This document shows positions 377 through 47,737 of a stretch of 61,005 nt of DNA, in pieces (position 1 is the first letter of the stretch; each line of letters begins with the position of its first letter). The notes below the pieces were generated by a model. That model searched no databases. It was given only the letters and a program-made list of their open reading frames with translations, and was not told where the DNA came from. A program made the position numbers and the translations under genes. Source of the DNA: Patescibacteria group bacterium (GTDB taxonomy: Bacteria; Patescibacteriota; Minisyncoccia; Phycocordibacterales; JANLHH01); assembly GCA_038063375.1 (NCBI GenBank), contig JBBTVG010000003.1, positions 9,060 to 70,064 of the forward strand, read 5' to 3'.

Positions 377-883
377 ATGAACAAGGCACATAAAAAAGTG
401 AACATAGTGTGCGGCGCGCTCGGGGTGCTCCTTCTCATGCCCATGTTCTCTGTTACGGCGGCTACGAACTCGATTACCAACACGGTTTCCAGTTCTGCTG
501 GAAGCGGGGGCAACAGCGCAGAGGGGGGTGAAGTAGTGGAAGGAACAACGTCGGCTAACGTGTTCATTAAAACGGTCGTAGACGGTAAGGTCATGGAGTT
601 CATCAACGAACACACCGATAACGCCGGGGAAGGAAAAGAGTTTAATACATTTTACAAAGACGAGACGGTGGAAGTAACCACAAAAGGGGAAGCCGGAGCA
701 AATAATCCTAATCTTGAACCGGGAGGGGGTGCGCTCACGGGGGAAATAATTAACAATACGGAAGAGAATACACCGAATGAAGTAGTGGATGAATCGGTCG
801 GAATATTCACGGAAACAAAATTTTCCTTCATCAAGTTTTTCTCACAAATGATGGCTTATGTATTCAATATATTCACAAAATAA
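377..883 (+). CDS. secreted hypothetical protein, related to the neighbouring repeat proteins
   Basis: N-terminal signal peptide MNKAHKKVNIVCGALGVLLLMPMFSVTAA. The GGNSAEGG...TSANVFIKT segment resembles the repeat unit of ORF 900-3827. Confidence 0.6.
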   Translation: MNKAHKKVNIVCGALGVLLLMPMFSVTAATNSITNTVSSSAGSGGNSAEGGEVVEGTTSANVFIKTVVDGKVMEFINEHTDNAGEGKEFNTFYKDETVEVTTKGEAGANNPNLEPGGGALTGEIINNTEENTPNEVVDESVGIFTETKFSFIKFFSQMMAYVFNIFTK

Positions 884-899
884 AGTAACCAAATTGACG

Positions 900-3827
900 A
901 TGCGATTCGTCGGCTTCTTGGTGCTTATCCCTCTCTCGTTCGGCAGTTTGACCGGTGTCGCGTTCGCAGAAACTTTAGGAGACGACACTGCATCTTCCAC
1001 ACCTGCGTCACTGAACACAGAGGGTAGCGCTGGCGACAGCGGTACTCCGGCCGAAGAAGGCGCGTTTATTAAAACAGGCGACGCGGGTGCGGGAGCAAAC
1101 GTAGGAAATACTGCAAATACGAACATAACTGATACAACGGGAAACGCCTCATCCACGCCGGAGATGACAGAAGGCGACACCGCGTCTTCCACGCCGGAGC
1201 TGTTGACCACAGAAGAAGAAGCGACGACCACCGCCTCAACAACCGTAACGAATACCAATGAAGCGACCACTACGAACACGGTAAGCGCGAGCGCCGCTAC
1301 GGGTGACAATAGCGCGGAAGGAGGCGGAGACTCGGTGATAGATACAGGCGATGCGTTTGCCTACGCGAATATCATCAATGTGGTCAACACGAATATTTTA
1401 AATTCAAACGGTTTCCTATTCTTTCTCAATAGTTTGTTTGGCAACGGTACCCTTGATCTGAACGACTATTTCAGCTTCTTTGAAAACGGCGGGGGAGAAG
1501 GATCACCATGTACACTGGAATCCTGCGAAGGGGGAGGAGCGACACTGAATGTCAAAAATGACAACAATGCGACAATCACCAACACTGTTATCGTTCGGTC
1601 AACGACTGGCGGCAACAACGCGACCAGCACAAGTGGCTCTGCCAACATCTATACCGGTGACGCGTACGCCGCAGCGAATGTGTTCAATCTCGCGAACACG
1701 AATATCACGAACTCAAATTATCTTTTATTTGCGTTCAATAATTTCGGCGATTACGACGGTGATGTTCTGCTTCCCGGAGAGAATTTCTTTTCTCATCTTC
1801 TGGGCGCGAACGGCTCCTCGCCTTCCGGTGGTGATGTTACGGTACACAATACGAATGAAGCTACTGTTGAAAATAGCGTGAACGCGGAGGCAAATACGGG
1901 AGAAAACAGCGCGAACAACACCGGCACGAGCAGTGCATTTATACAAACCGGCAACGCGTACGCGGGCTCAAATGTAGCCAATGTCGTTAATACCAATCTC
2001 TTTGGCGGCAGTACGGTTATCATGATGTTCCGAATCTATGGAAATTGGTCGGGAAGCGTCTTTGGTACGCCACCGGGGATCTCGTGGGCCGAAACACCCT
2101 ACGGCGTCCAATTATTCAACACACCGGAAGAGACAGACGGCGCGCCAGCGGAAAATTCCGACGGCACTCTAGGCGGGTCGCTTCATGTAGAAAACAACAA
2201 TACGGCGCTTATAAAAAACAACGTGCAAGTGTACGCACTCACGGGAGAAAACAAAGCGTATACGGAAAACGGTCAGGCGGCAATACGGACAGGTAATGCG
2301 TACGCGGGAGCAAATGTCGCCAATGTTGTTAATACTAATATAGTTGGGAAGAACTTGATGTTCCTGTTCTTCAATATCTTTGGCAATTGGCGCGGTAACA
2401 TTTCATTCGGACAACCGGATCTGTTGACCGTAGGGTCAGCACATTCGGAAGCAAGCTCCATCGGTCCCGGTTCGGATATTACCTATAACTTTACGGTTTC
2501 CAACTTGGGCAGCGCCCGCGCGACAAACGTGAAATTAAAGAACATCTTTGACGACACGTTCCTCTCCTTTGACGAGCATGACAGCGTGTTCCCCGAGGGT
2601 ATCACCTGGAACATCGGGAATATTCCGGCCAACGGAAGTGTGAATGTGTCGTATATGGCGCATGTCGGCAGTGATATTCCCTACGGAGAAACACTGCTTC
2701 GCGCGAGCGTGACCGCCACTCTTAACGAAACTGACAGTGATCCGTCAAACAACACGGAAGTGATTGACGTCATGGCGCTGCGAAGCAATCCTTCTTCCGG
2801 AAACAACAACAGCGGCGGTACAGGCGTTTCTTATACCCCTGATCCGGTATTGAAAATTACAAAAACATCCAATGCAAGTTCAACGGTTGCTATTACCGCC
2901 TCAAGCACCGTTGACTACACAATCGTAGTCAACAACGAAGGCGGAATGGCATACCACGCAGTATTGGTTGATACGATTACCGACGAAGCCGAAAAAATCA
3001 TCCATGAAGAATACTGGGAACTTGGCGAGATATTACCCAATGAGGAAATCACCGTCACTTATACGGTTGTCTTCAACGCAAGTACAACACCGGGAGTGTA
3101 TAAAAATCATGCCCAGGTGCTTTCTATCGGCAGGCATCCTTCCGTTAATCCATTCTACGGCTATTTTGCAGATTCAGCCGTTGTGACGAGCGATGTAATA
3201 ATTGTGGGCAACGAAGTGATATCTGCCCCGGAGTTAGCACCCGCACCTACCTGCGAGCCGTATCTGCGCGGATTTATCCGCACCGGCGCCAACAATGACC
3301 CGGCGGAAGTCACGAAACTCCAGCAATTCCTGAAAACGTATGAAGGGTTTACCGACCTTGCGGTAACGGGAACGTACAATAGCGCGACGCTCGCGGCGGT
3401 AAAAGCACTCCAGAGCAAGTACCGCGATGACATTTTGGGTCCATGGGGACTTGAACGCAACACGGGGTTTGTGTATTTCACTACGAAGAAAAAGATCAAC
3501 GAACTCTATTGCGCCGGACAAGCAGAGTTTGCGCTTAGTCTGGAAGAACAGCTGGAAGTGAACGCGTTCAAGGCGCTCATCGGGAGATTGAAGACACAAG
3601 TGAACGAATTGCCGGAATTTACCCAAGTGGGCGTGGTGAATGCGGCAAACGAGGGAATTGCCGCCGTGGAAACACCGGAGAGCGGTACAGAAAATAACGG
3701 CAACAGTCTTGTCGCGGGAGCGATTGAGTCGCTCCGCGGAGATGCCAACAAGGCTCTCCGCTCGGTTACCGACGCGGTAAAGAACGGTGTTGGAAGAATG
3801 GTTTCGTGGCTTCTATTCAATTTCTAG
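900..3827 (+). CDS. large secreted surface protein with a TG-D/N-A-Y-A...NTN tandem repeat region, two DUF11-like Ig repeats and a peptidoglycan-binding domain
   Basis: The ATG at 900 gives the signal peptide MRFVGFLVLIPLSFGSLTGVAFA, so the track start at 858 is probably too early. Other elements are a Thr/Ser-rich linker, repeats at aa 70-518 of the track ORF, DUF11-like SDITYNFTVSNLG and VDYTIVVNNEGG segments, and a PG_binding_1-like PAEVTKLQQFLK...TGTYNSATLAAVKALQ segment (nt 3252-3512). Confidence 0.8.
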   Translation: MRFVGFLVLIPLSFGSLTGVAFAETLGDDTASSTPASLNTEGSAGDSGTPAEEGAFIKTGDAGAGANVGNTANTNITDTTGNASSTPEMTEGDTASSTPELLTTEEEATTTASTTVTNTNEATTTNTVSASAATGDNSAEGGGDSVIDTGDAFAYANIINVVNTNILNSNGFLFFLNSLFGNGTLDLNDYFSFFENGGGEGSPCTLESCEGGGATLNVKNDNNATITNTVIVRSTTGGNNATSTSGSANIYTGDAYAAANVFNLANTNITNSNYLLFAFNNFGDYDGDVLLPGENFFSHLLGANGSSPSGGDVTVHNTNEATVENSVNAEANTGENSANNTGTSSAFIQTGNAYAGSNVANVVNTNLFGGSTVIMMFRIYGNWSGSVFGTPPGISWAETPYGVQLFNTPEETDGAPAENSDGTLGGSLHVENNNTALIKNNVQVYALTGENKAYTENGQAAIRTGNAYAGANVANVVNTNIVGKNLMFLFFNIFGNWRGNISFGQPDLLTVGSAHSEASSIGPGSDITYNFTVSNLGSARATNVKLKNIFDDTFLSFDEHDSVFPEGITWNIGNIPANGSVNVSYMAHVGSDIPYGETLLRASVTATLNETDSDPSNNTEVIDVMALRSNPSSGNNNSGGTGVSYTPDPVLKITKTSNASSTVAITASSTVDYTIVVNNEGGMAYHAVLVDTITDEAEKIIHEEYWELGEILPNEEITVTYTVVFNASTTPGVYKNHAQVLSIGRHPSVNPFYGYFADSAVVTSDVIIVGNEVISAPELAPAPTCEPYLRGFIRTGANNDPAEVTKLQQFLKTYEGFTDLAVTGTYNSATLAAVKALQSKYRDDILGPWGLERNTGFVYFTTKKKINELYCAGQAEFALSLEEQLEVNAFKALIGRLKTQVNELPEFTQVGVVNAANEGIAAVETPESGTENNGNSLVAGAIESLRGDANKALRSVTDAVKNGVGRMVSWLLFNF
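1065..2411 (+). repeat. protein-level tandem repeats inside ORF 900-3827
   Basis: Four full units plus one partial unit of [AN]TG[DE]N.A...G....I.TG[DN]A[YF]A.AN[VI].N[VL][VA]NTN[IL]. Each is followed by a hydrophobic block (FLFFLNSLFG, LLFAFNNFG, IMMFRIYGNWSG, MFLFFNIFGNWRG). Confidence 0.7.
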
Positions 3828-3884: not shown

Positions 3885-4493
3885 ATGAAAAAATATATTA
3901 TGAAAATTCCTACACTTATCCTTACTCTGGCGATCCTCATTACTCCGACATTTGTGTTTGCAGCACCAACAACATGCGCGGTCATTGGTGATGGCACTAT
4001 TACTGATTCAGTCGGTAACCCAATAACAACCGGTTATGATGAATTCGGTTATAATTATCAAGCGCACATGTTCAACGGGACATACGACAGCTCAGATAGA
4101 AATATTGACGGAACATATTGGGGTTCAACCGGTGATTACGTTGACGATTCATTGATGATGAAGTGGAGCGATGCGTGGCTTAGCAATAAGGATTGCAATA
4201 ATGACGGCAAGTTAGATCGCGGATTGGTAAATGGAGCGGTATCCGGAACAAGCATGGGATGGTTAACCAATCAAAATGAGGGCGATTATGATTCCGACGG
4301 AAACGGCTCGCAGGATGCTCACTACACTTATTTCACAAAGATAGTCTGGACGGGGCCCGGAAGCTCACTTTGGGGACAGTATACTACTATCCAAGAGGTT
4401 TATAACGATCCGGTAGGAGGGTTCAACGGCCTTCTCACTAAAATCGGAACTCCAGGATTTGGTCTTAACGATCAGTGGACAATGCTTCCGTAA
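3885..4493 (+). CDS. secreted hypothetical protein
   Basis: Signal peptide MKKYIMKIPTLILTLAILITPTFVFA, followed by a strong terminator. I recognise no family. Confidence 0.65.
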   Translation: MKKYIMKIPTLILTLAILITPTFVFAAPTTCAVIGDGTITDSVGNPITTGYDEFGYNYQAHMFNGTYDSSDRNIDGTYWGSTGDYVDDSLMMKWSDAWLSNKDCNNDGKLDRGLVNGAVSGTSMGWLTNQNEGDYDSDGNGSQDAHYTYFTKIVWTGPGSSLWGQYTTIQEVYNDPVGGFNGLLTKIGTPGFGLNDQWTMLP

Positions 4494-4498
4494 ACATA

Positions 4499-4530
4499 CA
4501 AAGACGCCTTCATGAAGGCGTCTTTGTTTT
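4499..4530 (+). terminator. rho-independent terminator
   Basis: AAAGACGCC / GGCGTCTTT stem followed by GTTTT, immediately after the stop codon at 4491-4493. Confidence 0.75.
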
Positions 4531-4536
4531 CGTCAG

Positions 4537-4567
4537 TTAACCACAGCTTATCTACACTTTATCCACT
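4537..4567 (+). promoter_or_regulatory. three DnaA-box-like 9-mers in 11-bp phase
   Basis: TTAACCACA (4537), TTATCTACA (4548) and TTATCCACT (4559). Each is one mismatch from TTATCCACA, and they are separated by exactly 2 bp. Confidence 0.3.
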
Positions 4568-4775
4568 TTTTTTGCAATAGAATTTGCTGAAAAATGCATA
4601 GCTCACAACATACTTTGTTTTTGTGAGGATGGATAACGCAAATAAGCGTGGTAGAGAGTGATATAGCTTCTGCGTCATATACTTGCGATACTTTGATTAA
4701 CAAGAGTACGAGATGTGGTCTGACATCTCGGCACTAATTATTATTTATTAGTTTATTAATTATTTGTTAATTCGT

Positions 4776-5630
4776 ATGAAAAAAATATTACTAAGTTTAA
4801 GTGCAATCGCTTTTGCGGGAGTTATTGTAGCGGGCGCCACTGGCGCATTCTTCCAGGATACGGAAACTTCAACGGGCAATACGTTTGCGGCTGGAGCAAT
4901 TGATTTGAAAGTAGACAATGAGAGCTATTATAACTCTCAAGTTTCAACAAGTACTTCTTGGCAACTTACAGACTTGACCATTGAGAAATTTTTTAATTTC
5001 TCTGATGTAAAGCCGGGTGATGACGGAGAAGACACGATCAGTCTTCATGTCAATAACAATGATTCGTGGCTTTGCGCGGATGTAACTCTTACCAGCAACG
5101 ACGACAACGGCATTACAGAGCCGGAAGGTGAAGATGGTGATGTTACTGATGGTCCCGGAAACGGAGAATTGGCAAATCACATTGAATTCATGTGGTGGGC
5201 TGATGATGGAGACAATGTATTTGAGTCGGATGAGGCAACTCTTCCTGGAACGGGAGGTACTCTTGGCGCTTTGAGTCTTAACGCGACAACGAGTGTGACA
5301 TTAGCAGACGCAAGCTTCAATGTTTGGAGTGCTACGAGTAGCGACCCTGTTCCAGGAGATGGATCAACTCGCTATATCGCAAAAGCATGGTGTTTTGGTG
5401 ATATTGGGCAAGCTGCGCTTCCTCAAAACAGTCCTACAGGTGACTGGAGCCCGGCGACGAACAACAATGGGGATGGAGTTATTGACGAACTTGATGGCGG
5501 ATTCAGTTGCAGTGGCGCTTCAAGTCTCAACAATGTTACTCAAACCGACAGCTTGACTGCCAACATTGGTTTCTATGCCGTGCAAAGCAGAAACAATGCC
5601 GGTTTTCTTTGCAGTCAGAGAGATCTCTAG
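4776..5630 (+). CDS. TasA/camelysin-like secreted protein with a SipW-type signal peptide (paralog 1)
   Basis: MKKILLSLSAIAFAGVIVAGATGAFFQDTETSTGNTFAAGAIDLKVDNES matches the Bacillus TasA/CalY N-terminal signature. The ATG at 4776 is preferred over the TTG at 4764. Confidence 0.75.
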   Translation: MKKILLSLSAIAFAGVIVAGATGAFFQDTETSTGNTFAAGAIDLKVDNESYYNSQVSTSTSWQLTDLTIEKFFNFSDVKPGDDGEDTISLHVNNNDSWLCADVTLTSNDDNGITEPEGEDGDVTDGPGNGELANHIEFMWWADDGDNVFESDEATLPGTGGTLGALSLNATTSVTLADASFNVWSATSSDPVPGDGSTRYIAKAWCFGDIGQAALPQNSPTGDWSPATNNNGDGVIDELDGGFSCSGASSLNNVTQTDSLTANIGFYAVQSRNNAGFLCSQRDL

Positions 5631-5709
5631 TAGGTTTATCAATTAATACGTCAAATCTAAGTTTCGAGTTTGAGGGGAATTTCTTGATATTTAGGAGCGG
5701 CATAAACCT

Positions 5710-7092
5710 ATGAAAAAAATTCTGTTAAGTCTTGGAATGATGCTCGCGGTGATCGCGGTAGTTACCGTGGGTACCGGCGCGTTTCTTTCGGATACCGAAG
5801 TTTCTGCCGACAATACGTTCACGGCGGGAGAAATTGACCTGAAGGTAGATAACGAAAGTTACTACAACGGGGCGGTTTCAACTTCGACGACATGGCTTGC
5901 TTCGGATCTCGTCAACGGCCTGCTCTTCTTCAATTTCACCGACCTTAAGCCGGATGATGAAGGAGAGGACACCATTTCGCTTCACGCAGGCACGAATGAC
6001 GCGTACGCATGTATGGACATCTCGCTTACTTCGGATGACGACCGCTCTTCAAACGAACCCGAACTTGGGGCCGGCGACGTAGCGGAGGATATCAACGATA
6101 CATGGGACGGCGAGCTTGCCGACAATCTCCAAATGTTCTGGTGGGCCGATGATGGTGATAACGTCTTTGAAGACGACGAGAATTCCATTTCCGGCGGCGT
6201 TAAAACACTTACGGAACTCGCGACAACCTCAACCTTCTCTGTTGCCCTTGCCGATTCATTAAACAACATCTGGACGAACGCGCCCGGACCAATTCCCGGA
6301 AATGAGACGCGCTACATTGGAAAAGCATGGTGCTTTGGAACATTAACTCTTGACCCGGTAGCAGCCGGACAGGGGGTTGATCCGACCGTAAACCCGGGTG
6401 TTGACTGCGATGGAACGACGCTTAATAACCTGACACAGACCGATGGAGCAACGCTTGATATTGCTTTCAGAGCAATTCAGGCCAGGAATAATCCTAATTT
6501 CCTCTGCAGTGGGCAGGAAACCCGCACGGCCGAGCTCACCGTCGTTAAGATAATTACAAACGATAACGGCGGAAACAACGTTATTGCCGATTTCCAGCTT
6601 CAAGTTGTGGGGACGGTGGTAACCAATGTGACGAGTGGCGCAACGACAACGTTTGCGGCGGATAATTACATAATCACGGAGACAGGTATCTCTGGTTATG
6701 TCGCTTCGTTTAGCGGCGATTGTGATGCTTCAGGTCAAATCACCCTTAATCCGGGCGATGCCAAAACCTGCACGATCACGAACAACGACCTTCCGGGAAA
6801 TATTACTCTTATTAAGAGCGTAATTAACAATAACGGCGGAATCAAACAACCGGTTCAGTTTCCACTCCTTGTTGACGGTAGCTTGGTGCAGAACAACACA
6901 GCAACTTCAACCCTCGCGAATATAGCTCATACCATTAATGAAACACAGCAATCAGGATACACATTTATCTCAATGTTAGGCGTGTCTAACTATGGGCAAT
7001 CATGTCCGGCAGTGCTTGGAGGTTCAATCACTCTTGCTGAAGGCGAAGCCATTACCTGCACCATCACGAACGACGATAATCCGCCTCTGTAA
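5710..7092 (+). CDS. TasA/camelysin-like secreted protein (paralog 2) with two extra C-terminal Ig-like repeats
   Basis: The N-terminus GTGAFLSDTEVSADNTFTAGEIDLKVDNES is collinear with paralog 1 up to RNNPNFLCSG. From nt 6526 there are two repeats of about 90 aa (VVKIITNDNGG...CTITNND and LIKSVINNNGG...CTITNDD). Confidence 0.75.
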   Translation: MKKILLSLGMMLAVIAVVTVGTGAFLSDTEVSADNTFTAGEIDLKVDNESYYNGAVSTSTTWLASDLVNGLLFFNFTDLKPDDEGEDTISLHAGTNDAYACMDISLTSDDDRSSNEPELGAGDVAEDINDTWDGELADNLQMFWWADDGDNVFEDDENSISGGVKTLTELATTSTFSVALADSLNNIWTNAPGPIPGNETRYIGKAWCFGTLTLDPVAAGQGVDPTVNPGVDCDGTTLNNLTQTDGATLDIAFRAIQARNNPNFLCSGQETRTAELTVVKIITNDNGGNNVIADFQLQVVGTVVTNVTSGATTTFAADNYIITETGISGYVASFSGDCDASGQITLNPGDAKTCTITNNDLPGNITLIKSVINNNGGIKQPVQFPLLVDGSLVQNNTATSTLANIAHTINETQQSGYTFISMLGVSNYGQSCPAVLGGSITLAEGEAITCTITNDDNPPL

Positions 7093-7167
7093 ATTTCGCC
7101 GCGGATATAATGCCTCTCGCCCAACTCCACATTCTTATGAGTGGGGTTCTAGATTGAGGCATGAATA

Positions 7168-7228
7168 GTCGCACCACACGGGCACTTCTTGTTTTCTAAG
7201 TCGCTTCGCGCCTAAGAAAACAATGTCG
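7168..7228 (+). promoter_or_regulatory. 61-nt conserved leader element, copy A, containing an imperfect hairpin and abutting the sipW-like start
   Basis: GTCGCACCACACGGGCACTTCTTGTTTTCTAAGTCGCTTCGCGCCTAAGAAAACAATGTCG. It is 57/61 identical to the reverse complement of 10899-10959. The TTGTTTTCTAAG / CTAAGAAAACAA arms pair at 11 of 12 positions. Confidence 0.7.
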
Positions 7229-7768
7229 CGCTCTTCATATATGGTAACAAAAATTGTATCGTACCTATTCGGAGCAATGGTGGTGATTATCACGGCACTT
7301 TTAATCGCTTCAGTCTTTCCTATCGCGGGCAACTTCAAGATACTCATTGTTCAATCCGGTTCTATGGAGCCGGCGATCAATACCGGAGGCATTGTCGTGG
7401 TGAAGCCCGTGTCTCAATATAGTGTGGGAGACGTGATCACTTTCGGTCCCGTATCAAAAACGAAAGCGCCCACCACCCACCGTATCGTTGATATACGATT
7501 TCAAAACGGAAATCCCGTGTATGTGACGAAGGGCGACGCGAACGAGGATACAGACACGCAAGAGGTATTGGCGAGACATGTGATCGGAAAAGTGCTTTTT
7601 GATATTCCCTTTTTGGGATATGTACTCGCGGCGGCGAAAACGCCCATCGGATTCGTGGTTTTGATCGTCATCCCCGCGGGACTCGTCGCGATTGACGAAG
7701 TGTACAAAATATATAGAGAGGTAAGAAGGATGAGGGGTAAAGCAAGAGAAAACGGGAAGAGGGCATAA
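7223..7768 (+). CDS. signal peptidase I, ER/archaeal type (SipW-like)
   Basis: Motifs QSGSMEPAINTGG (catalytic Ser), TTHRIVDI (His) and KGDANEDTD, with N- and C-terminal TM helices. The start may instead be Met-7 at 7241. Confidence 0.8.
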   Translation: MSRSSYMVTKIVSYLFGAMVVIITALLIASVFPIAGNFKILIVQSGSMEPAINTGGIVVVKPVSQYSVGDVITFGPVSKTKAPTTHRIVDIRFQNGNPVYVTKGDANEDTDTQEVLARHVIGKVLFDIPFLGYVLAAAKTPIGFVVLIVIPAGLVAIDEVYKIYREVRRMRGKARENGKRA

Positions 7769-7785
7769 ACAGTAAATATATTTGT

Positions 7786-9480
7786 ATGGCACGACATATA
7801 TTACAACTGAAAAAAATCAAAGAAACTCACGCTCATACTCTTAATTTGCGTGGTGCAATGCCTATTTCCGCGCGGGGAAAAAGAAGGAAGATCATTGATA
7901 TCAAGATTCTGCCTGTTCTCAAAAAACCGACTCTGACGACAGCGCGACCATCCGTTGCCCCATCGTACGCACGAATAATTGCGGTGTTCCTTATCGTTGT
8001 GGGGAGTGGAATGGCGCTTGGAACCGTGGGAAAGACTGTCTCCGTGTTCAACGACCTTGAAAGATCGTCGGCAAATTTGTTTGCGAGCGGTGTCATTGAC
8101 TTTTCACTTACGCTCACGCCATGGAGCAATTCCGTATGGCTTAATATGGAGCAGGGTACATCAAGCGCATACGATGTGGGCGTCTCGGCGCTTGCGGGAA
8201 GCAATCCGTTCCAGTATTACGCGTCAAGCACGAATTTTGGCGGCGATCCGGATTTTTGCGGCGCGCTTTCAACAAGAGCGATAGTTGGCAGTGAAGAACC
8301 ATACAACGGCTTACTGCGCGACATGCTTACGGCGACAACGACGACTCTTGGAGCCTGGAATTTTGAATTTTCCACCGGTCAAAATTTTGCGAACCGGATA
8401 TGCCGCTTTGACACCGACTTTAACGGCTGGCAGACGAGGCATAACCTGCCAAATTATGAAGAGGGTGGGTTTAAGGACACGGAAAAAATAACGCGGAGCA
8501 TTTATTCCGCGGGATTGCGTATCAATAAGGTATATTTTGAAAAAGAGGGCGAAGAAGACGGAGGCATCCACACGGGGGACGCTTCTTCAACAGTGACCGT
8601 CATAAATATCATCAATCAAAACGAAACGGATATTAACACCTGCGCGTGCGGAGATCCGCTTCATGATACGTACGGAGATGACAACGAAGCGCATTGCGAT
8701 CAAGAGGGAGGAGACACTATTGTCGTGAACGACAATAGTGTGATAGTCACGAATAATGCGACCGCAACAGCAAATACCGGCGGAAATAACGCAGAGGGCG
8801 GCGGCACGTTCCATGCGGATCACGAATGGGTTGAACTTTACAACCAAACGGATGAGGAGGTTAACATATCCGGTTGGACGATATGCGACAACGCGTCATG
8901 TGATGAACTTCTCGCTGACGCCCCCATTCCTCCTCATGGATTCGCGATCATTGCAGGCTCTGCGGAGGCATGGGACACGCACGACATCCCTCCAGGGGTG
9001 GTAACAATCGTTGTTTCTGATGGGGTCATTGGTGACGGACTCGGTAACGGCGCGGACATGCTCGTGCTTAAACGTCCGGACGGTGAGATTATTGACCAGA
9101 TGAATTGGGGTGCGCCTGATGGGAGTTGGACGAATTATAATGCCGATATATGGAATCCCGGAGTCGTGCCGCCCGGCGCGGGTGGCACGCTCGGGCGCGT
9201 ACCGGATGGCTACGACACGAATAATCCAAGTGATTTTTCCTCACTTCTTACTGTTTATCGGGAAGCCCCACCTTTAAATTTAAATGATGGAGAAGAAGGT
9301 TCTCTAGACGCGACAGAGGACGCCGAGATACAAGAGGAAACTTCGCAAAACACCGAGAACGAGGGAGAGCCAGAACCGGCACGCGCGCCGCGCGATGCGA
9401 GAGATTCCGAACGGTCGCAAAGAGGCGCACAACGTGAAGAAGATGTGACTAATGAAGAGAATATTGAAATTAGTTCTTAG
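7786..9480 (+). CDS. TasA-like SipW-substrate domain fused to repeat motifs, a lamin-tail domain and an acidic tail
   Basis: The TM helix plus GKTVSVFNDLERSSANLFASGVIDFSL gives the SipW-type signal. IHTGDASSTVTVINIINQNETDI and ANTGGNNAEGGG motifs are shared with ORF 900-3827. The LTD-like segment is EWVELYNQTDEEVNISGWTICDN...ADMLVLKRPDGEIIDQMNWG. The C-terminus is Glu/Asp-rich. The true start may be Met-25 at 7858. Confidence 0.7.
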   Translation: MARHILQLKKIKETHAHTLNLRGAMPISARGKRRKIIDIKILPVLKKPTLTTARPSVAPSYARIIAVFLIVVGSGMALGTVGKTVSVFNDLERSSANLFASGVIDFSLTLTPWSNSVWLNMEQGTSSAYDVGVSALAGSNPFQYYASSTNFGGDPDFCGALSTRAIVGSEEPYNGLLRDMLTATTTTLGAWNFEFSTGQNFANRICRFDTDFNGWQTRHNLPNYEEGGFKDTEKITRSIYSAGLRINKVYFEKEGEEDGGIHTGDASSTVTVINIINQNETDINTCACGDPLHDTYGDDNEAHCDQEGGDTIVVNDNSVIVTNNATATANTGGNNAEGGGTFHADHEWVELYNQTDEEVNISGWTICDNASCDELLADAPIPPHGFAIIAGSAEAWDTHDIPPGVVTIVVSDGVIGDGLGNGADMLVLKRPDGEIIDQMNWGAPDGSWTNYNADIWNPGVVPPGAGGTLGRVPDGYDTNNPSDFSSLLTVYREAPPLNLNDGEEGSLDATEDAEIQEETSQNTENEGEPEPARAPRDARDSERSQRGAQREEDVTNEENIEISS

Positions 9481-9541: not shown

Positions 9542-10867
9542 TTATGGCCTCCAGTCGAGCGCCGCCGCAGCATTCACCAAGCCGTTTCCATACGTGTTGT
9601 CTTTTCCGGGAGCGCCTAGGTCTTGGGCGGTTGTTTCAATTGCCGCTCTTACATCGGCAGGTGTGGTGGCATAGCCGTTTGCAATGAGCAGTGCGGCGAC
9701 TCCCGCCACATGAGGGCTTGCCATGGATGTTCCGTTATAGAAATAGTATCCCCAATTATTTGTTTGTCTGCTGAATGTTTGCTGTAAGACGCCGTCTCCG
9801 TAGCCGTCGCCATTTTGATCAACCGAGAGATCGCCGCCTGGAGCAACGATGTCAATACTTGCGCCGTAGTTTGAGTATGGCGCCAGGGTTTCATCATAGC
9901 GAGTCGCTCCAACTGAAATGACATACGCGTCATATCCGGCAGGGTAGGAGGGGGTGTCATTCCCGCTGTTGCCTGCCGCGGCGACGATGGTCACCCCTTT
10001 TCCATAGGCGTAAGCGAGCGCCTCTTCAAGGTAGGAAGCTTTTGCGGAACCGCCAAGCGACATGTTGATGACTTTCGCGCCATTATCGGCCGCGAAACGC
10101 ACACCGAGGGCTATGTCTGCGTAGGTGCCGCTTCCATTTTTATTGAGTACCTTGATCGGCATAATGCGCGCTTTGTGGGCAACACCCGCTACGCCGACGC
10201 CATTGTTGGTACTTTGTGCGATAGTGCCCGTCACATGCGTTCCGTGGCCTTCGTCGTCATTAGGATGAGTGTCTTTGTTCACAAAGTCGTAACCGGGAGC
10301 AAAGAGCGTGACAGCGAGGTCGGGGGCGCGATAATATTTATTCCGGCGATTCTTCTCGGTATAATTTTCATACGCCACTCCGGTGTCAATGACCGCAACG
10401 GTAACACCTGAACCTGTTGAAGTATTCCAGGCCTCTTCTGCTTCAATGCCTCCGTACACAGGGTTATCCAAGTGCCATTGATATTTATAGAACGGGTCGT
10501 TTGGCACCATGAATGAGTGTGCGATATAATTCGGTTCGGCATAGAGAACATCCGAGTTTGATCGGTATTTGCCCAATGCTGTTTCAAGTGTTTCTCCTGG
10601 TGAAAGACGTATCCTCTGGAAACGGGATTCGTTTTTGAATTTTACGATAACCTCGTCTTCTGCGCGGAGCGCTCCCTCGCGCGCGTTCATGTTCCTTAAT
10701 TCCAAACGCGAACTTCTTTCGCGAGAAACGACGCCGTTCTCAAGCCGCTCTTGCATGACCGTGAAATCCACTGTGATGCCGGGAGTTGCGTATACCGCTT
10801 GAGAATATACGAATCCGAGCGACAACATAAGAGCAAAGAAAAGAATGTATTTTTTCATATTTTTCAT
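9542..10867 (-). CDS. secreted subtilisin-like serine protease (peptidase S8) with an N-terminal propeptide
   Basis: Signal peptide MKNMKKYILFFALMLSLGFVYSQAVYA. Catalytic triad motifs VAVIDTGV, HGTHVTGTIA and GTSMASPHVAGVAALL. Confidence 0.9.
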   Translation of the reverse strand: MKNMKKYILFFALMLSLGFVYSQAVYATPGITVDFTVMQERLENGVVSRERSSRLELRNMNAREGALRAEDEVIVKFKNESRFQRIRLSPGETLETALGKYRSNSDVLYAEPNYIAHSFMVPNDPFYKYQWHLDNPVYGGIEAEEAWNTSTGSGVTVAVIDTGVAYENYTEKNRRNKYYRAPDLAVTLFAPGYDFVNKDTHPNDDEGHGTHVTGTIAQSTNNGVGVAGVAHKARIMPIKVLNKNGSGTYADIALGVRFAADNGAKVINMSLGGSAKASYLEEALAYAYGKGVTIVAAAGNSGNDTPSYPAGYDAYVISVGATRYDETLAPYSNYGASIDIVAPGGDLSVDQNGDGYGDGVLQQTFSRQTNNWGYYFYNGTSMASPHVAGVAALLIANGYATTPADVRAAIETTAQDLGAPGKDNTYGNGLVNAAAALDWRP

Positions 10868-25599: not shown

Positions 25600-26625
25600 A
25601 TGACGGTAATCACATTCAAACCAAAGCAGGTTTCCAACAGACTCCTTTCCGTATTGCCGGAGAGAACCAGGGATATATTAGTTCAGCGTTACGGCCTTTC
25701 TGATGGAGAAAGATCCACACTTGAAGCGATCGGGCAAACCTACGGTATTACCCGTGAACGGGTGCGACAAATTGAAAATTTCGCGCTCAATACGATCCGG
25801 AAATCCGACACGTATCAAAAAGAAACTCCCGCATTTGAAGAATTGAAGAATGTTGTTATTTCACTCGGTGGGGTGGTTGCCGAGGATGATCTGTTGTCTC
25901 ATGTCACCAAAGACCCGAACACGCAAAACCACGTACACCTTTTTCTTGTTTTGGGGGATACCTTCCAGCGCCAAAAAGAGGATGAGCAATTCAAGCACCG
26001 ATGGGTTGTGGACAACACTGTGGCGCAAAAGGTGCATCAATCATTACAACGTCTGCATGAGGGTCTCTCAGATGAAGATCTCATCTCCGAAAGCGAAATA
26101 ATTTCACGATTTTTGGGATACCTGAAAGATGTCTCCGAAGAATATAAGAACGAAGAAATCGCAAAGCGATGGCTTTCCATTTCTAAAAAGGTGCAGAAAA
26201 ATCCACTGGGGGAATGGGGTATTGCGGAGTCGCCAAACATCAAAGCGCGCGGTATGCGTGATTACGCCTTTCTGGTTATCAGGCGCCATGGCAACCCAAT
26301 GCATTTTACCGAGGTGGCAAAAGAAATTGAAAAATCCTTTGGGAAAAAAGCTCACGTGGCAACCTGTCACAATGAACTTATCAAGGACCCTCGTTTTGTA
26401 CTTGTAGGGCGAGGTTTGTACGCCCTTTCTTCATGGGGATATTCCAGCGGTATCGTTCGCGATGTCATTGCCGACATTCTCAAAAAGAACGGCCCGCTCC
26501 CCAAACAGGATATCGTAGATAAGGTACTCAAAGAACGCTACGTAAAGCCGAATACCATTGTTGTTAATCTTCAAGACGTTAAGTATTTCAAAAAGAACAA
26601 GGACGGATCTTATACATTGGTGTAA
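25600..26625 (+). CDS. DNA-binding protein with a sigma-70 region-4-like HTH and a C-terminal HARE-HTH-like domain
   Basis: RYGLSDGERSTLEAIGQTYGITRERVRQIENFALNTIRK resembles sigma region 4. The C-terminal segment is MHFTEVAKEIEK...RFVLVGRGLYAL. Confidence 0.5.
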   Translation: MTVITFKPKQVSNRLLSVLPERTRDILVQRYGLSDGERSTLEAIGQTYGITRERVRQIENFALNTIRKSDTYQKETPAFEELKNVVISLGGVVAEDDLLSHVTKDPNTQNHVHLFLVLGDTFQRQKEDEQFKHRWVVDNTVAQKVHQSLQRLHEGLSDEDLISESEIISRFLGYLKDVSEEYKNEEIAKRWLSISKKVQKNPLGEWGIAESPNIKARGMRDYAFLVIRRHGNPMHFTEVAKEIEKSFGKKAHVATCHNELIKDPRFVLVGRGLYALSSWGYSSGIVRDVIADILKKNGPLPKQDIVDKVLKERYVKPNTIVVNLQDVKYFKKNKDGSYTLV

Positions 26626-31348: not shown

Positions 31349-31882
31349 ATGCCGAATAACAAATATTACTCAAGAAACAACCTTATCTCTACGTTCCTTA
31401 TTGGAGTTCTGGCGGGATTCGGCTTGTATTCCATGTGGGATAATTCCGCTGCCGTGAAGAGTTTCGTAAAACAAGACAAAGGGGTGCAAAAAGAAGGAGA
31501 CGTGATGGATGAATCTTTAAATGAAGGTGCTTTGCTTGATACGAATAAAGAATCTTTCGGTACATACGTGCTCTCCGCACAAGACCAGCCGGAGGGGCTT
31601 AAAGTGCTTATTGATTCTGCAATAATGAGCGCGCAAGGATGGATCGTGATCCATGAGGATCGTGATGGCGCTCCGGGCAATATTTTGGGAGCGCAGCGCT
31701 TTGAGGCGGGTGTTTCCGCGGGGGAAGTGGAACTCCAGCGCAATACCGTTGAAGGGGGAACATACTACGCTATGGTCCATACTGATGATGGCGATGGCCA
31801 ATTTGATCACACAAAAGATCTCCCCTTAATAGAAAACGACGCGCCGGTCATGGTGAAATTCAGCGCTATCCGCGCCCACTAA
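31349..31882 (+). CDS. secreted or membrane-anchored hypothetical protein
   Basis: N-terminal TM helix LISTFLIGVLAGFGLY. The C-terminal domain contains GWIVIHEDRDGAPGNILG...YYAMVHTDDGDGQFD. Confidence 0.55.
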   Translation: MPNNKYYSRNNLISTFLIGVLAGFGLYSMWDNSAAVKSFVKQDKGVQKEGDVMDESLNEGALLDTNKESFGTYVLSAQDQPEGLKVLIDSAIMSAQGWIVIHEDRDGAPGNILGAQRFEAGVSAGEVELQRNTVEGGTYYAMVHTDDGDGQFDHTKDLPLIENDAPVMVKFSAIRAH

Positions 31883-37746: not shown

Positions 37747-37748
37747 CC

Positions 37749-40109: not shown

Positions 40110-40110
40110 T

Positions 40111-44439: not shown

Positions 44440-44444
44440 TCAGG

Positions 44445-45650: not shown

Positions 45651-45664
45651 ATACCACTATTTAT

Positions 45665-47716: not shown

Positions 47717-47737
47717 TGCTATAATTCAAGAAAATAT

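What the first reader, a model, noticed from the sequence alone, without database searches (positions are those of the whole stretch)
4776..9480. tapA-sipW-tasA-like fibre locus: three SipW-type signal-peptide proteins around an archaeal-type signal peptidase
**Shared signal motif.** ORFs 4776-5630, 5710-7092 and 7786-9480 each carry the same motif directly after an N-terminal hydrophobic helix: GATGAFFQDTETSTGNTFAAGAIDLKV, GTGAFLSDTEVSADNTFTAGEIDLKV and GKTVSVFNDLERSSANLFASGVIDFSL. I recognise this as the SipW-dependent signal/N-terminus of Bacillus TasA, CalY and camelysin.

**Peptidase.** These ORFs bracket ORF 7223-7768. Its SGSMEP, THRI and GDANEDTD motifs and C-terminal TM helix are those of the ER/archaeal-type signal peptidase SipW.

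**Known function elsewhere.** In Bacillus this gene set builds donor-strand-exchanged TasA biofilm fibres. TasA-like subunits also form archaeal bundling pili.

**What differs here.** The set is elaborated. Paralog 2 has two extra Ig-like repeats. Paralog 3 is fused to a lamin-tail domain and an acidic tail, and contains the repeat motif of the giant surface protein upstream.

**Why it matters.** In an apparently CPR-like, probably host-attached organism this could be an uncharacterised adhesive fibre or pilus. I am not aware of an experimental description.
Basis: partly seen in the sequence, partly recalled or inferred. Interest (0 to 1): 0.8.

Follow-up and report, generated by a model that had tools for sequence, protein, structure and literature searches.

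The report
TasA-like fibre operon in a Parcubacterium
A four-gene operon in an ultra-small candidate-phyla-radiation (CPR) bacterium encodes relatives of the Bacillus biofilm-fibre protein TasA and their dedicated archaeal-type signal peptidase; the kind of system is known, but this widespread CPR version has its own architecture and has never been studied experimentally.

Summary
ORFs 4776-5630, 5710-7092 and 7786-9480 carry the only three copies in the window of a TasA/SipW-type N-terminal motif. They bracket ORF 7223-7768, an ER/archaeal-type signal peptidase with a Ser47-His86-Asp105 triad.

- **Paralogs 1 and 2** pass TIGR04088. The paralog 1 model finds the TasA fibre (8AUR) and the archaeal bundling pilus (7UEG) as its top two PDB matches. 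TasA interface residues F29, P62 and Q232 align with family-invariant F26, P80 and Q270.
- **Paralog 3** is not a TapA homologue. It is a divergent TasA-like beta-sandwich, followed by a surface-repeat unit, a lamin-tail domain and an acidic tail.
- **Conservation.** The locus is a conserved Parcubacteria/Microgenomates module. In 80 related loci, 1-4 (most often 3) TasA-like genes are followed by the peptidase (73 of 74 evaluable). The paralog-3 domain then follows as the next gene (37) or fused to the peptidase in one ORF (29).

The most likely function is a SipW-processed, donor-strand-exchanged surface fibre that displays adhesin domains, primed or anchored by paralog 3. Polymerisation itself is untested. 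TasA homologues in Patescibacteria were already noted by a Pfam survey in 2022 and by automated annotation. I therefore rate this a new variant of a known kind, of moderate interest.

The parts
4500..4531 (+). Intrinsic-terminator-like perfect palindrome (AAAGACGCCTTCA/TGAAGGCGTCTTT) followed by a T-run. It ends the upstream gene 3885-4493 and marks the 5' boundary of the operon.
   Evidence: Read directly from the sequence. The pattern scan missed it.
4532..4775 (+). AT-rich upstream region of the operon. A promoter is presumed here but was not identified.
   Evidence: No consensus sigma-70 site and no Rfam family were found.
4776..5630 (+). Paralog 1: a 284-aa TasA-like subunit with the core only. 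It is the candidate major fibre subunit.
   Evidence: PF12389 23.7 bits (cut-off 22.5) and TIGR04088 20 bits (cut-off 19). More than 2579 homologues, all from CPR. AF2 pLDDT 78.6. Foldseek top hits are 8AUR and 7UEG.
4776..4847 (+). Predicted signal peptide of paralog 1 (residues 1-24). Cleavage is predicted at A-T-G-A|F-F-Q-D.
   Evidence: Site logo of 169 homologues: T at -3 in 95% and A at -1 in 95%. It is in register with B. subtilis TasA G-T-W-A|A-F-N-D, whose mature N-terminus is the start of the 8AUR chain.
4848..4907 (+). Residues 25-44, FFQDTETSTGNTFAAGAIDL: the candidate N-terminal donor strand.
   Evidence: This is the most conserved segment of the family, at 95% or more at 11 of 20 positions. 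It has low confidence in the AF2 monomer: the under-50 pLDDT segment 17-40 covers residues 25-40, and DSSP assigns no secondary structure until the first strand at residue 43. It aligns with the TasA donor strand, residues 28-46 (PMC9674648).
5710..7092 (+). Paralog 2: a 460-aa TasA-like core (residues 1-270) plus two C-terminal prealbumin-like SpaA-type domains. It is the candidate adhesin-bearing subunit.
   Evidence: 50% identity to paralog 1. TIGR04088 20.9 bits. SpaA_2 49.2 bits at residues 273-356 and SpaA_4 at 389-455.
7223..7768 (+). SipW/SEC11-type (S26B) signal peptidase I, 181 aa. It has an N-terminal and a C-terminal TM helix. The catalytic residues are Ser47 (7361-7363), His86 (7478-7480) and Asp105 (7535-7537).
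   Evidence: TIGR02228 105 bits (cut-off 51.85). SEC11A match at E 1.5e-8. SGSM, THR and GD.N are 95% or more conserved in 75 homologues.
7786..9480 (+). Paralog 3, 564 aa. In order it has a basic cytoplasmic N-region, a TM helix, the SipW-type motif, a divergent TasA-like beta-sandwich, one surface-repeat unit, an LTD and an acidic tail. It is the candidate fibre initiator or anchor.
7786..8043 (+). Paralog 3 residues 1-86: a 62-aa basic cytoplasmic segment plus a TM helix. Cleavage is predicted at T-V-S|V-F-N-D.
   Evidence: This segment corresponds to the linker plus third TM helix of the SipW fusion proteins seen in 29 related loci. Site logo: T at -3 in 87% and S at -1 in 70%.
8044..8511 (+). 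Paralog 3 residues 87-242: the motif VFNDLERSSANLFASGVIDF followed by a beta-sandwich domain.
   Evidence: AF2 pLDDT 84.5, with most of the motif (protein residues 82-94 and 97-99) below pLDDT 50. Foldseek finds pilin-type sandwiches, including the TasA fibre at probability 0.99. hhalign to the TasA-like family gives E 3.8e-10.
8566..8820 (+). One unit of the 'I-x-TGDA...N-x-x-N-x-N / ...ANTGGNNAEGGG' repeat shared with the upstream 989-aa surface protein.
   Evidence: The repeat is conserved in the L001 homologue.
8791..9111 (+). Lamin-tail domain (residues 336-442).
   Evidence: PF00932 45.7 bits against a cut-off of 34.3.
9268..9477 (+). Acidic low-complexity C-terminal tail.
   Evidence: Read directly from the sequence. 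The fusion homologues have similar E/P/T-rich tails.

Best explanation
The locus 4776-9480 is a self-contained operon of a Parcubacterium. It encodes a TasA-superfamily surface-fibre system.

**Proposed mechanism**
1. The Sec system exports paralogs 1 and 2.
2. The membrane-embedded SipW/SEC11-type peptidase (ORF 7223-7768) cleaves them after T-x-A. This exposes the invariant N-terminus FF(S/Q)DTETSxGNTFxAGxIDL.
3. That N-terminus acts as a donor strand. It inserts into the beta-sandwich of the next subunit, as in Bacillus TasA fibres and archaeal bundling pili, and so builds a non-covalent fibre.
4. Paralog 1 (core only) would be the bulk subunit.
5. Paralog 2 and its relatives would decorate the fibre with adhesin-type C-terminal domains. 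Here these are SpaA-like; elsewhere they are vWA, CBM, beta-helix and others.
6. Paralog 3 is made next to the peptidase and, in many relatives, as one polypeptide with it. It is a divergent TasA-like sandwich with the same motif. It most likely plays the part that TapA plays in Bacillus, priming and/or anchoring the fibre at the membrane. Its LTD and acidic tail would face the envelope or the partner cell.

**Shown:** homology of the signal and N-terminal region; the peptidase type; the fold resemblance; the operon conservation; the gene fusion.

**Inferred:** cleavage by this peptidase; polymerisation; the initiator/anchor role; any role in host attachment.
For: **Signal and family**
- TIGR04088 is above cut-off for paralogs 1 and 2, and PF12389 is above cut-off for paralog 1.
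- PF12389 matches 51 of 83 long family representatives, with a best E of 1.1e-9.

**Fold**
- The AF2 model of paralog 1 (pLDDT 78.6) has the motif segment disordered.
- Out of 350,542 PDB chains, its two best Foldseek hits are the TasA fibre 8AUR (E 3.9e-3, probability 0.97) and the bundling pilus 7UEG.

**Register with TasA**
- hhalign of the family against B. subtilis TasA gives E 1.2e-4 over the first ~80 residues.
- With greedy extension it gives E 3.6e-5.
- In that alignment TasA F29, P62 and Q232 align with family-invariant F26, P80 and Q270. These are the 'proline box' that Roske et al. found to be the most conserved protomer-interface residues (PMC10151520).
- The cleavage site T-x-[AS]|[FY]-[FY]-x-D is in register with the experimentally known mature N-termini of TasA (8AUR) and TapA (6QAY).

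**Peptidase**
- It is S26B type with a Ser-His-Asp triad.
- It lies within 300 nt of the last TasA-like gene in 73 of 74 evaluable related loci.
- One CPR MAG in the literature has both sipW and lepB, while two others have lepB only. SipW is therefore an accessory peptidase, not the housekeeping one (PMC10936435 supplement).

**Third component**
- It is homologous to the TasA-like family.
- It is present after SipW in 66 of 72 evaluable loci, and fused to SipW in 29 of them.

**C-terminal cargo**
- The appended domains are adhesin-type: SpaA_2 in 27 representatives, VWA in 10, and also CBM96, beta-helix and DUF642.
Against: - No oligomer model or experiment shows polymerisation.
- TM-scores to TasA are modest (0.36 and 0.43), and Foldseek E-values are only ~1e-3.
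- The Pfam match covers only the first ~60 of 196 profile positions. It is below threshold for paralog 2 and absent for paralog 3.
- The middle of the greedy hhalign alignment is unreliable. F200, the fourth proline-box residue, has no clear counterpart.
- The CPR core is larger than TasA (about 260 against 210 residues). It has four invariant cysteines and acidic motifs that TasA lacks, so the assembly mode could differ.
- Paralog 3 has no similarity to TapA beyond the motif. Its role is assigned by position and analogy only.
- The window contains no evidence on the organism's lifestyle.
Confidence: 0.6

Rival explanations
1. The three proteins are SipW-processed surface or secreted adhesins that do not polymerise. 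The conserved N-terminus would be only a recognition and sorting element for the dedicated peptidase, or a cell-wall or S-layer docking peptide.
For: - Polymerisation is not demonstrated.
- The fold match to TasA is modest.
- The variable C-terminal adhesin domains, and the LTD and PG-binding-type neighbours, fit ordinary surface proteins.
Against: - Signal peptidases need only small residues at -1 and -3. Yet about 20 residues after the site are near-invariant across about 170 paralogs. That indicates a structural role for the mature N-terminus.
- That segment is unstructured in the monomer model.
- TasA interface residues F29, P62 and Q232 have invariant counterparts.
- Every member of the superfamily characterised so far is a donor-strand filament: TasA, AbpA, AbpX, CanA and the archaeal threads (PMC9674648, PMC9245690, PMC12518558).
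Confidence: 0.25
2. Paralog 3 is not cleaved. It stays as a membrane anchor, in the fused forms as part of the peptidase. Its membrane-proximal motif would fill the empty groove of the basal fibre subunit and tether the fibre. It would not act as a released TapA-like nucleator.
For: - It has a long basic cytoplasmic N-region plus a TM helix, which is unlike a normal signal peptide.
- It is fused to SipW in 29 loci.
- TIGR04088 does not recognise it.
Against: The small residues T (-3, 87%) and S (-1, 70%) are conserved exactly where TasA and TapA are cut. That would be unnecessary for an uncleaved anchor.
Confidence: 0.3
3. ORF 7223-7768 is simply the cell's general signal peptidase, and its position among secreted-protein genes is incidental.
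For: No LepB-type gene was seen in the 61-kb window.
Against: - The peptidase is adjacent to TasA-like genes in 73 of 74 loci, and is fused to a TasA-like domain in 29.
- One published Patescibacteria MAG carries lepB as well as sipW, and other Patescibacteria MAGs have lepB only.
- The window covers only a fraction of the genome.
Confidence: 0.05
4. The proteins are camelysin-type metalloproteases (the Pfam name Peptidase_M73) or RiPP precursors (the JGI product name).
For: Only the database names.
Against: - Neither paralog contains an HExxH or other zinc-protease motif.
- The Pfam match is to the signal and N-terminal strand only.
- The proteins are 280-990 aa folded beta-sandwich proteins, not short peptides.
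Confidence: 0.03

Closest known systems
Bacillus subtilis tapA-sipW-tasA operon (TasA biofilm fibres; PDB 8AUR and 5OF1; TapA 6QAY and 6HQC)
   Same: - A dedicated S26B (SipW) peptidase is encoded among its substrates.
- The substrates share the T-x-A|(A/F)-F-x-D...(F)-x-(A/S)-G-x-(L/I)-D-L N-terminus.
- The fold is a beta-sandwich/jelly-roll.
- The interface residues F29, P62 and Q232 have counterparts.
- An accessory protein with the same N-terminal motif is genetically coupled to sipW. In Bacillus the tapA stop codon overlaps the sipW start codon; here the accessory gene is adjacent or fused.
   Different: - There is no TapA homologue, and the gene order differs.
- There are 1-4 TasA-like genes per locus (most often 3) rather than one.
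- The core is about 50 residues larger, with four invariant Cys and acidic motifs (WWADDGDNV, KPGDxGEDT).
- Many subunits carry C-terminal adhesin domains.
- The third component is itself TasA-like and carries a TM anchor, an LTD and an acidic tail.
- The peptidase scores below the Bacillus SipW equivalog cut-off (111 against 190 bits).
Bacillus cereus sipW-tasA(calY1)...calY2 locus (camelysins)
   Same: Several TasA paralogs lie with one SipW, and there is no TapA. One paralog is thought to take the initiator role (PMC10151520).
   Different: The camelysins are single-domain and closely related to TasA. No peptidase-substrate fusion, LTD or SpaA/vWA cargo is known in that locus.
Archaeal TasA-superfamily filaments: AbpA bundling pili (7UEG), AbpX, cannulae CanA, Sulfolobus threads
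   Same: - They are the second-best structural match.
- They are donor-strand-complemented beta-sandwich filaments.
- AbpX/TasA-like genes often lie next to a signal peptidase I and to further paralogs (PMC12518558).
- The peptidase here is of the archaeal/ER type.
   Different: - Sequence similarity is negligible.
- The AbpA and CanA loci lack a dedicated peptidase.
- Cannulae use Ca2+ sites. The acidic invariant motifs of the CPR family might do likewise, but that was not tested.
Chaperone-usher (type I) pili and sortase-assembled Gram-positive pili (SpaA)
   Same: - The paralog 3 sandwich matches donor-strand-complemented pilins (AggA, PsaA, EcpA, CsuA/B) and the Gram-positive pilin CppA.
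- Paralog 2 carries SpaA-type prealbumin-fold domains.
   Different: There is no usher, chaperone, sortase or LPXTG signal in the locus. The resemblance is of fold and principle only.

Membership tests
TasA / CalY / camelysin (Pfam PF12389, TasA superfamily) | Significant match to the family profile | tested here: inconclusive
   - Paralog 1 scores 23.7 bits against the gathering score of 22.5, but only profile positions 5-63 of 196 are matched.
- Paralog 2 scores 19.8 bits, below threshold.
- Paralog 3 has no hit.
- 51 of 83 family representatives match at E of 1e-3 or better, with a best E of 1.1e-9.
TasA / CalY / camelysin (Pfam PF12389, TasA superfamily) | SipW-dependent-type signal peptide and mature N-terminus (TIGR04088) | tested here: met
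   - Paralog 1 scores 20.0 bits and paralog 2 scores 20.9 bits against a cut-off of 19.
- Paralog 3 is not detected by the model. It does carry the motif in the same register and matches the family profile.
TasA / CalY / camelysin (Pfam PF12389, TasA superfamily) | TasA-like jelly-roll/beta-sandwich fold | tested here: inconclusive
   The two best PDB matches of the paralog 1 model are 8AUR (E 3.9e-3, probability 0.97, TM 0.36/0.43) and 7UEG. The ranking is telling, but the scores are modest. Paralog 3 finds 8AUR at rank 8 among generic pilin sandwiches.
TasA / CalY / camelysin (Pfam PF12389, TasA superfamily) | Conserved protomer-interface residues (TasA F29, P62, F200, Q232) | tested here: inconclusive
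   F29, P62 and Q232 align with invariant F26, P80 and Q270. F200 has no reliable counterpart. The C-terminal part of this result rests on a greedy hhalign run.
TasA / CalY / camelysin (Pfam PF12389, TasA superfamily) | Polymerisation by N-terminal donor-strand exchange | not testable with these tools
   No multimer prediction was available. The only indirect evidence is the disordered, near-invariant N-terminal segment.
SipW / SEC11 / archaeal-type signal peptidase I (MEROPS S26B) | Match to the archaeal/ER-type profile rather than the bacterial LepB profile | tested here: met
   TIGR02228 scores 105.2 bits against a cut-off of 51.85. TIGR02227 scores 26.7 against 47. The only PDB sequence matches are SEC11A and SEC11C.
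SipW / SEC11 / archaeal-type signal peptidase I (MEROPS S26B) | Ser-His(-Asp) catalytic residues instead of a Ser-Lys dyad | tested here: met
   S47 (SGSMEP), H86 (TTHRI) and D105 (KGDAN) align with the SEC11A motifs. They are 95% or more conserved in 75 CPR homologues. The residue roles come from my own knowledge of Tjalsma et al. 2000.
SipW / SEC11 / archaeal-type signal peptidase I (MEROPS S26B) | Equivalog of Bacillus SipW (NF046067) | tested here: not met
   It scores 111.2 bits against a cut-off of 190. It is the same type of enzyme, but not an orthologue by NCBI's criterion.
SipW / SEC11 / archaeal-type signal peptidase I (MEROPS S26B) | Processes the neighbouring TasA-like proteins | not testable with these tools
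   This is inferred from adjacency in 73 of 74 loci, from the fusions and from the conserved -3/-1 residues.
TapA (YqxM) | Sequence or profile similarity to TapA | tested here: not met
   hhalign of the paralog 3 family against TapA gives probability 1.5% over 18 columns, the motif only. The TapA sequence was verified against 6QAY.
TapA (YqxM) | TasA-like N-terminal strand and genetic coupling to sipW (functional features) | tested here: met
   The motif is in register. The gene is next to sipW (37 loci) or fused to it (29 loci) out of 72 evaluable. This supports 'works like TapA', not membership of the family.
Lamin-tail domain (PF00932) | Profile match above the gathering score | tested here: met
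   45.7 bits against 34.3, at paralog 3 residues 336-442.
SpaA-type prealbumin-fold domain (PF19403) | Profile match above the gathering score | tested here: met
   49.2 bits against 25, in two stretches in paralog 2.

The most novel reading that the evidence does not exclude
Parcubacteria build their main adhesive surface fibre with a chaperone-free TasA-type system. In this system the archaeal-type signal peptidase and the fibre initiator form one functional unit, and in about 40% of lineages literally one polypeptide.

The proposed sequence is as follows. The peptidase cuts its own fused substrate. This frees a donor strand at the membrane. That strand nucleates polymerisation of 1-4 paralogous subunit types, which display interchangeable adhesin domains (SpaA-like, vWA, CBM). 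The fibre would be the host- or partner-attachment organelle of these ultra-small bacteria.
Probability: 0.3. Interest if true: 0.75.

Novelty: new variant of a known kind. Interest (0 to 1): 0.55.

Why it matters
CPR/Patescibacteria make up a large share of bacterial diversity. How most of them, Parcubacteria especially, hold on to surfaces or partner cells is unknown beyond type IV pili.

This locus defines a large family:
- about 900 clusters at 50% identity with E of 1e-30 or better;
- 295 confirmed hits in a collection of one genome per species.

Its core is unusually well conserved for CPR, at 55-60% identity across candidate phyla. It sits in a stereotyped operon.

If it forms fibres, several things follow:
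- It extends donor-strand-exchange TasA filaments to a third major branch of life's diversity.
- It offers a natural peptidase-initiator fusion that could clarify how TasA-type fibres are primed.
- It gives concrete targets (mature paralog 1, and the paralog 3 N-terminal peptide) for in vitro assembly, and for recognising filaments in cryo-ET of enrichments.

If it does not form fibres, it is still a well-defined family of SipW-dependent surface proteins.

Tried and rejected
- **Direct sequence searches of the PDB.** Paralog 1 alone and the family profile found nothing related to TasA. The only hit was a chance-level 'exported protein', 9OW2. The relation to TasA needed profile-profile and fold comparison.
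- **A global hhalign run** gave nothing. Only local or greedy modes align.
- **TapA homology of paralog 3** was rejected.
- **The weak DUF7268 hit in paralog 3** (17 bits against a cut-off of 27) was not pursued.
- **Upstream and downstream genes as operon members.** I considered the upstream surface-protein genes (377-883, 858-3827, 3885-4493) and the convergent S8 protease (9542-10867) and rejected all of them:
  - A terminator separates the upstream genes from the operon.
  - Homologues of the 989-aa protein are near the locus in only about 12 of 80 loci.
  - The 202-aa protein is nearby in one locus and an S8 protease in two.
- **My first regex-based count of the third component** was wrong. 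A spurious second peptidase domain hit and too strict a pattern caused it. I replaced it with an HMM-based count.
- **Promoter scan and Rfam scan** found nothing usable.
- **Literature searches** for SipW, TasA or LTD together with CPR found only the one-line Pfam survey statement.
- **Both structure-prediction jobs** went on monomers, so no oligomer test could be attempted.

Full report
**1. Observation**

The four ORFs are present as described. The quoted motif strings, the SGSMEP, THRI and GDANEDTD motifs and the C-terminal hydrophobic helix of ORF 7223-7768 can all be read in the translations.

A regular expression for the shared motif, run over all six reading frames of the 61-kb window, hits three times only. 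The hits are at 4848, 5782 and 8044, once in each of the three ORFs. The clustering is therefore not chance.

A perfect 26-nt palindrome plus T-run at 4500-4531 ends the upstream gene. The downstream gene, an S8 protease at 9542-10867, is convergent. So 4776-9480 is a self-contained four-gene unit.

**2. Organism**

The nearest relatives of every protein examined come from CPR metagenome-assembled genomes (MAGs).
- For the TasA-like proteins these are Kaiserbacteria, Yonathbacteria, Lloydbacteria, Nomurabacteria, Zambryskibacteria, Portnoybacteria, Vogelbacteria and Giovannonibacteria, and more distantly Woesebacteria and Daviesbacteria.
- The window's leucyl-tRNA synthetase is closest to Yanofskybacteria, Kaiserbacteria, Wildermuthbacteria and Paceibacterota sequences, at 60-67% identity.

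The rest of the window is ordinary chromosome. It encodes LeuRS, CysRS, DnaB, RecR, YchF, MnmA, YceG, RmuC and CorA, plus a long glycosyltransferase cluster.

**3. The peptidase**

- ORF 7223-7768 passes the archaeal-type signal peptidase I model (TIGR02228, 105 bits against a cut-off of 51.85).
- It fails the bacterial LepB model (TIGR02227, 26.7 against 47).
- It resembles Bacillus SipW but scores below the equivalog cut-off (NF046067, 111 against 190).
- Its only sequence matches in the PDB are the human signal-peptidase-complex catalytic subunits SEC11A and SEC11C (E 1.5e-8). The SGSMEP, HR and GDxN motifs align.
- In an alignment of 75 CPR homologues, S45-G-S47-M, T-H86-R and G-D105-x-N are 95% or more conserved.

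The enzyme is therefore an S26B (Ser-His-Asp) peptidase. Assignment of the catalytic roles rests on published work on SipW and SEC11, which I cite from my own knowledge.

**4. Paralogs 1 and 2**

They are 50% identical over a 270-aa core. Both pass the SipW-dependent signal model TIGR04088.

Pfam's TasA/camelysin model PF12389 is just above threshold for paralog 1 and just below for paralog 2. In both it matches only the first ~60 profile positions.

The family is large and confined to CPR in all listed hits:
- more than 2579 hits in the 90% identity database;
- 902, 2016 and 3861 cluster representatives at 50% identity, at E of 1e-30, 1e-10 and 1e-3 or better.

The core is unusually conserved, at 55-60% identity across candidate phyla. 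It has invariant blocks FFxDxExSxxNxxxAGxxDL, FFxFxDxKPGDxGEDTI, WWADDGDNVxE, KAWCFG and FxAxQxRxN, and four invariant cysteines.

An AlphaFold2 model of paralog 1 (pLDDT 78.6) is a beta-sandwich. Residues 17-40, which are the end of the signal peptide plus the conserved motif, have pLDDT below 50. Against 350,542 PDB chains, its two best Foldseek matches are the TasA fibre (8AUR, E 3.9e-3, probability 0.97, TM 0.36/0.43) and the Pyrobaculum bundling pilus (7UEG). These are the two solved TasA-superfamily filaments that appear among the listed matches. The scores are modest, but the ranking is specific.

**5. Register with TasA**

I verified a recalled B. subtilis TasA sequence against 8AUR: residues 28-261 are identical.
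- hhalign of the CPR family against TasA aligns the signal peptide, the mature N-terminus and the 'LKPGD' strand (E 1.2e-4).
- With greedy extension the alignment runs to the C-terminal strand (E 3.6e-5).

In that alignment TasA F29, P62 and Q232 fall on the family-invariant F26, P80 and Q270. Roske et al. identified F29, P62, F200 and Q232 (the 'proline box') as the most conserved residues of TasA and the camelysins, and all four lie in the protomer interface of the filament (PMC10151520). The fourth residue, F200, has no reliable counterpart here, and the middle of the alignment is unreliable.

In TasA, residues 28-38 are the donor strand that completes the next subunit (PMC9674648).

**6. 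Cleavage site**

- In 169 TasA-like ORFs from related loci the site reads G-[AG]-T(95%)-G-A(95%) | F(94%)-F-S-D(100%)-T-E(99%)-T-S(99%)-x-G-N(99%)-T-F-x-A-G(99%)-x-I-D-L(99%).
- In 31 paralog-3-like sequences it reads T(87%)-V-S(70%) | Y-F-N-D(100%)-x-E-x-S-x-x-N-x-L-x-A.
- B. subtilis TasA (G-T-W-A|A-F-N-D) and TapA (T-S-A|A-F-H-D) are cut at the same register. The chains of 8AUR and 6QAY start at those residues.

This predicts cleavage at A24|F25 in paralogs 1 and 2, and at S86|V87 in paralog 3.

The roughly 20 residues after the site are far more conserved than a peptidase recognition site requires. That argues for a structural role of the mature N-terminus.

**7. Paralog 3**

It has, in order:
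- a 62-aa basic N-region and a TM helix;
- the motif;
- a beta-sandwich;
- one unit of the repeat found four times in the upstream 989-aa protein;
- an LTD (PF00932, 45.7 bits);
- an acidic tail.

TIGR04088 does not detect it. A profile of its family nevertheless matches the TasA-like family at probability 96.7%, E 3.8e-10, over 85 columns. Those columns cover the TM helix, the motif and the first strands.

The N-domain model (pLDDT 84.5) again leaves most of the motif at low confidence. It matches pilin-type sandwiches: CppA, AggA, PsaA, EcpA, CsuA/B, and the TasA fibre at rank 8 with probability 0.99.

Against TapA there is nothing beyond the motif (probability 1.5%). Against TasA the match is weak (E 6.8e-4). 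Paralog 3 is therefore a third, divergent TasA-like protein and not a TapA homologue.

**8. Synteny**

I analysed 80 non-redundant related loci, from metagenomes and from a collection of one genome per species.
- 74 have the peptidase downstream of the TasA-like genes. In 73 of these it lies within 300 nt of the last one. In the other six loci the contig ends first.
- Loci that are complete upstream hold 1 (2 loci), 2 (13), 3 (32) or 4 (11) TasA-like genes.
- A profile of the paralog 3 N-domain finds that domain directly after the peptidase in 66 of 72 evaluable loci. It is the next gene in 37, often overlapping, and part of the same ORF as the peptidase in 29.

The fused proteins read as follows: SipW domain, its C-terminal TM helix, a basic linker of about 60-90 aa, a third TM helix, then ...G-S-T-V-S-Y-F-N-D-x-E-x-S..., a beta-sandwich and an acidic or proline-rich tail.

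This topology puts the catalytic domain and the cleavage site on the same (outer) side of the membrane. It also explains the odd long basic N-region of the window's paralog 3: that region is the former linker. The window's four-gene arrangement, including the LTD, recurs in L001, L006, L007, L019, L021, L034, L053 and L066.

**9. Cargo domains**

Among 83 longer family representatives the domains C-terminal to the core are:
- SpaA_2 (27) and SpaA_4 (5);
- VWA (10);
- beta-helix (4);
- InlB-type B-repeat (3);
- CBM96 (2) and DUF642 (2);
- single cases of DUF11, S8 protease, CARDB and macroglobulin domains.

These are typical adhesin or binding modules.

**10. Mechanism**

The best-supported reading is a TasA-type system, as set out in the Best explanation section.
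- *Shown here:* the homology of the signal and N-terminal region, the peptidase type, the fold resemblance, the conserved operon and the fusion.
- *Inferred:* cleavage by this peptidase, donor-strand polymerisation, and the role of paralog 3.

The initiator/anchor role is proposed by analogy with TapA. TapA donates its TasA-like N-terminus to prime TasA assembly, is present at low abundance like SipW, and is translationally coupled to sipW (PMC10151520 and PMC9674648). A peptidase-initiator fusion would enforce exactly that stoichiometry and location.

Whether paralog 3 is released or stays as a membrane tether cannot be decided here. The conserved small -3 and -1 residues favour cleavage.

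The invariant acidic motifs and cysteines suggest metal sites and disulfides. A VKOR gene adjoins the locus in L001, and archaeal cannulae of the same superfamily need Ca2+ (PMC12518558). This point is speculation.

**11. Is the peptidase dedicated?**

No LepB-type gene lies in the window, but the window is only a fraction of the genome. In the supplementary tables of Kuroda et al. 2024 (PMC10936435), one Patescibacteria MAG (PMX.50) has both sipW (K13280, expressed) and lepB. Two others have lepB only. That fits an accessory, substrate-dedicated enzyme.

In the same MAG the gene numbered just before sipW, PMX.50_00003, is among the five most highly expressed secreted proteins of unknown function. 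It was modelled there as a 'galactose-binding domain fold'. It may belong to this family, but I could not verify that without its sequence. Treat it as a lead only.

**12. Novelty**

- Wang et al. 2022 reported, from a Pfam PF12389 survey, that TasA homologues occur in Patescibacteria among other phyla (PMC9245690).
- NCBI and JGI pipelines already label some relatives 'TasA family protein' or 'SipW-like signal peptide'.
- I found no paper in the searchable library that describes the CPR operon, its paralog arrays, the cargo domains, the third component or the peptidase fusion.

The system is therefore a new variant of a known kind. It is not categorically new, and the bare statement 'TasA-like proteins exist in CPR' is already known.

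**13. Verdict**

I put interest at about 0.55. The family is widespread, well conserved and experimentally untouched, and it has one unusual feature, the SipW-initiator fusion. But its class was foreseeable from existing annotation, and its key property, fibre formation, is still inferred.

Noticed in passing
window 156, 1338, 1647, 1941, 2283, 8566 (+ strand); ORFs 9-233, 858-3827, 7786-9480: An uncharacterised repeat, 'I-x-T-G-[DNH]-A-x(5)-[VI]-x-N-[VIL]-x-N-x-N', preceded by '...A-x-T-G-x-N-x-A-x-G-G', occurs six times. It is found in a truncated upstream ORF, four times in the 989-aa DUF11/PG-binding surface protein, and once in paralog 3. That region has no Pfam, NCBIfam or PDB match. Homologues of the 989-aa protein lie within 10 kb of the TasA-like locus in about 12 of 80 related loci.
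   Followed up: partly
window 4500-4531: A perfect 26-nt palindrome plus T-run (a textbook intrinsic terminator) lies after ORF 3885-4493. The terminator scan did not report it, probably because the loop is too short for its rule.
   Followed up: yes
L020, L026, L040, L050, L052, L058, L059, L065, L071 (SipW fusion ORFs, cytoplasmic linker): A subset of the SipW-paralog-3 fusion proteins shares a conserved cytoplasmic linker motif, about 'R-M-M-D-I-x-x-P-V'. The window's paralog 3 has a possible remnant of it (IIDIKILPV, LNLRG). Its function is unknown.
   Followed up: partly
L001 5569-6024 (- strand): A VKOR (disulfide-bond formation) gene lies about 860 bp upstream of the TasA-like operon in a related contig. 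The TasA-like core has four invariant cysteines, and the paralog 3 N-domain has two.
   Followed up: no
window 37294-53359: A 16-kb cluster of surface-glycan genes, with lower G+C (0.36-0.42) than the rest of the window. It encodes GtrA, several two-domain GT2/GT4 glycosyltransferases of 690-810 aa, a polysaccharide pyruvyl transferase, a PMT_2-type transferase and a CarboxypepD_reg-domain protein.
   Followed up: no
window 33197-33805; L001 19057-19701: A stand-alone 202-aa GGDEF diguanylate cyclase is present in the window. A GGDEF gene also lies about 6.5 kb downstream of the locus in L001. A link between c-di-GMP and the fibre operon was not examined.
   Followed up: no
window 9542-10867 (- strand): A convergent secreted S8 subtilase with a fervidolysin-type propeptide. 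It is mycosin-like but below the equivalog cut-off (216 against 279 bits). S8 genes occur near the locus in only 2 of 80 related loci, so it is probably unrelated to the operon.
   Followed up: partly
L057, L060, L079 and many 'uncultured Candidatus Saccharibacteria' records: Several public MAG contigs that carry this Parcubacteria-type locus are titled Gammaproteobacteria or Saccharibacteria. These are probably mislabelled or mis-binned records.
   Followed up: no
window 25600-26625 and 31349-31882: A 341-aa protein combines sigma-70 region 4 with a HARE-HTH domain. A 177-aa protein has a DUF7282 domain. Both are unexplored.
   Followed up: no
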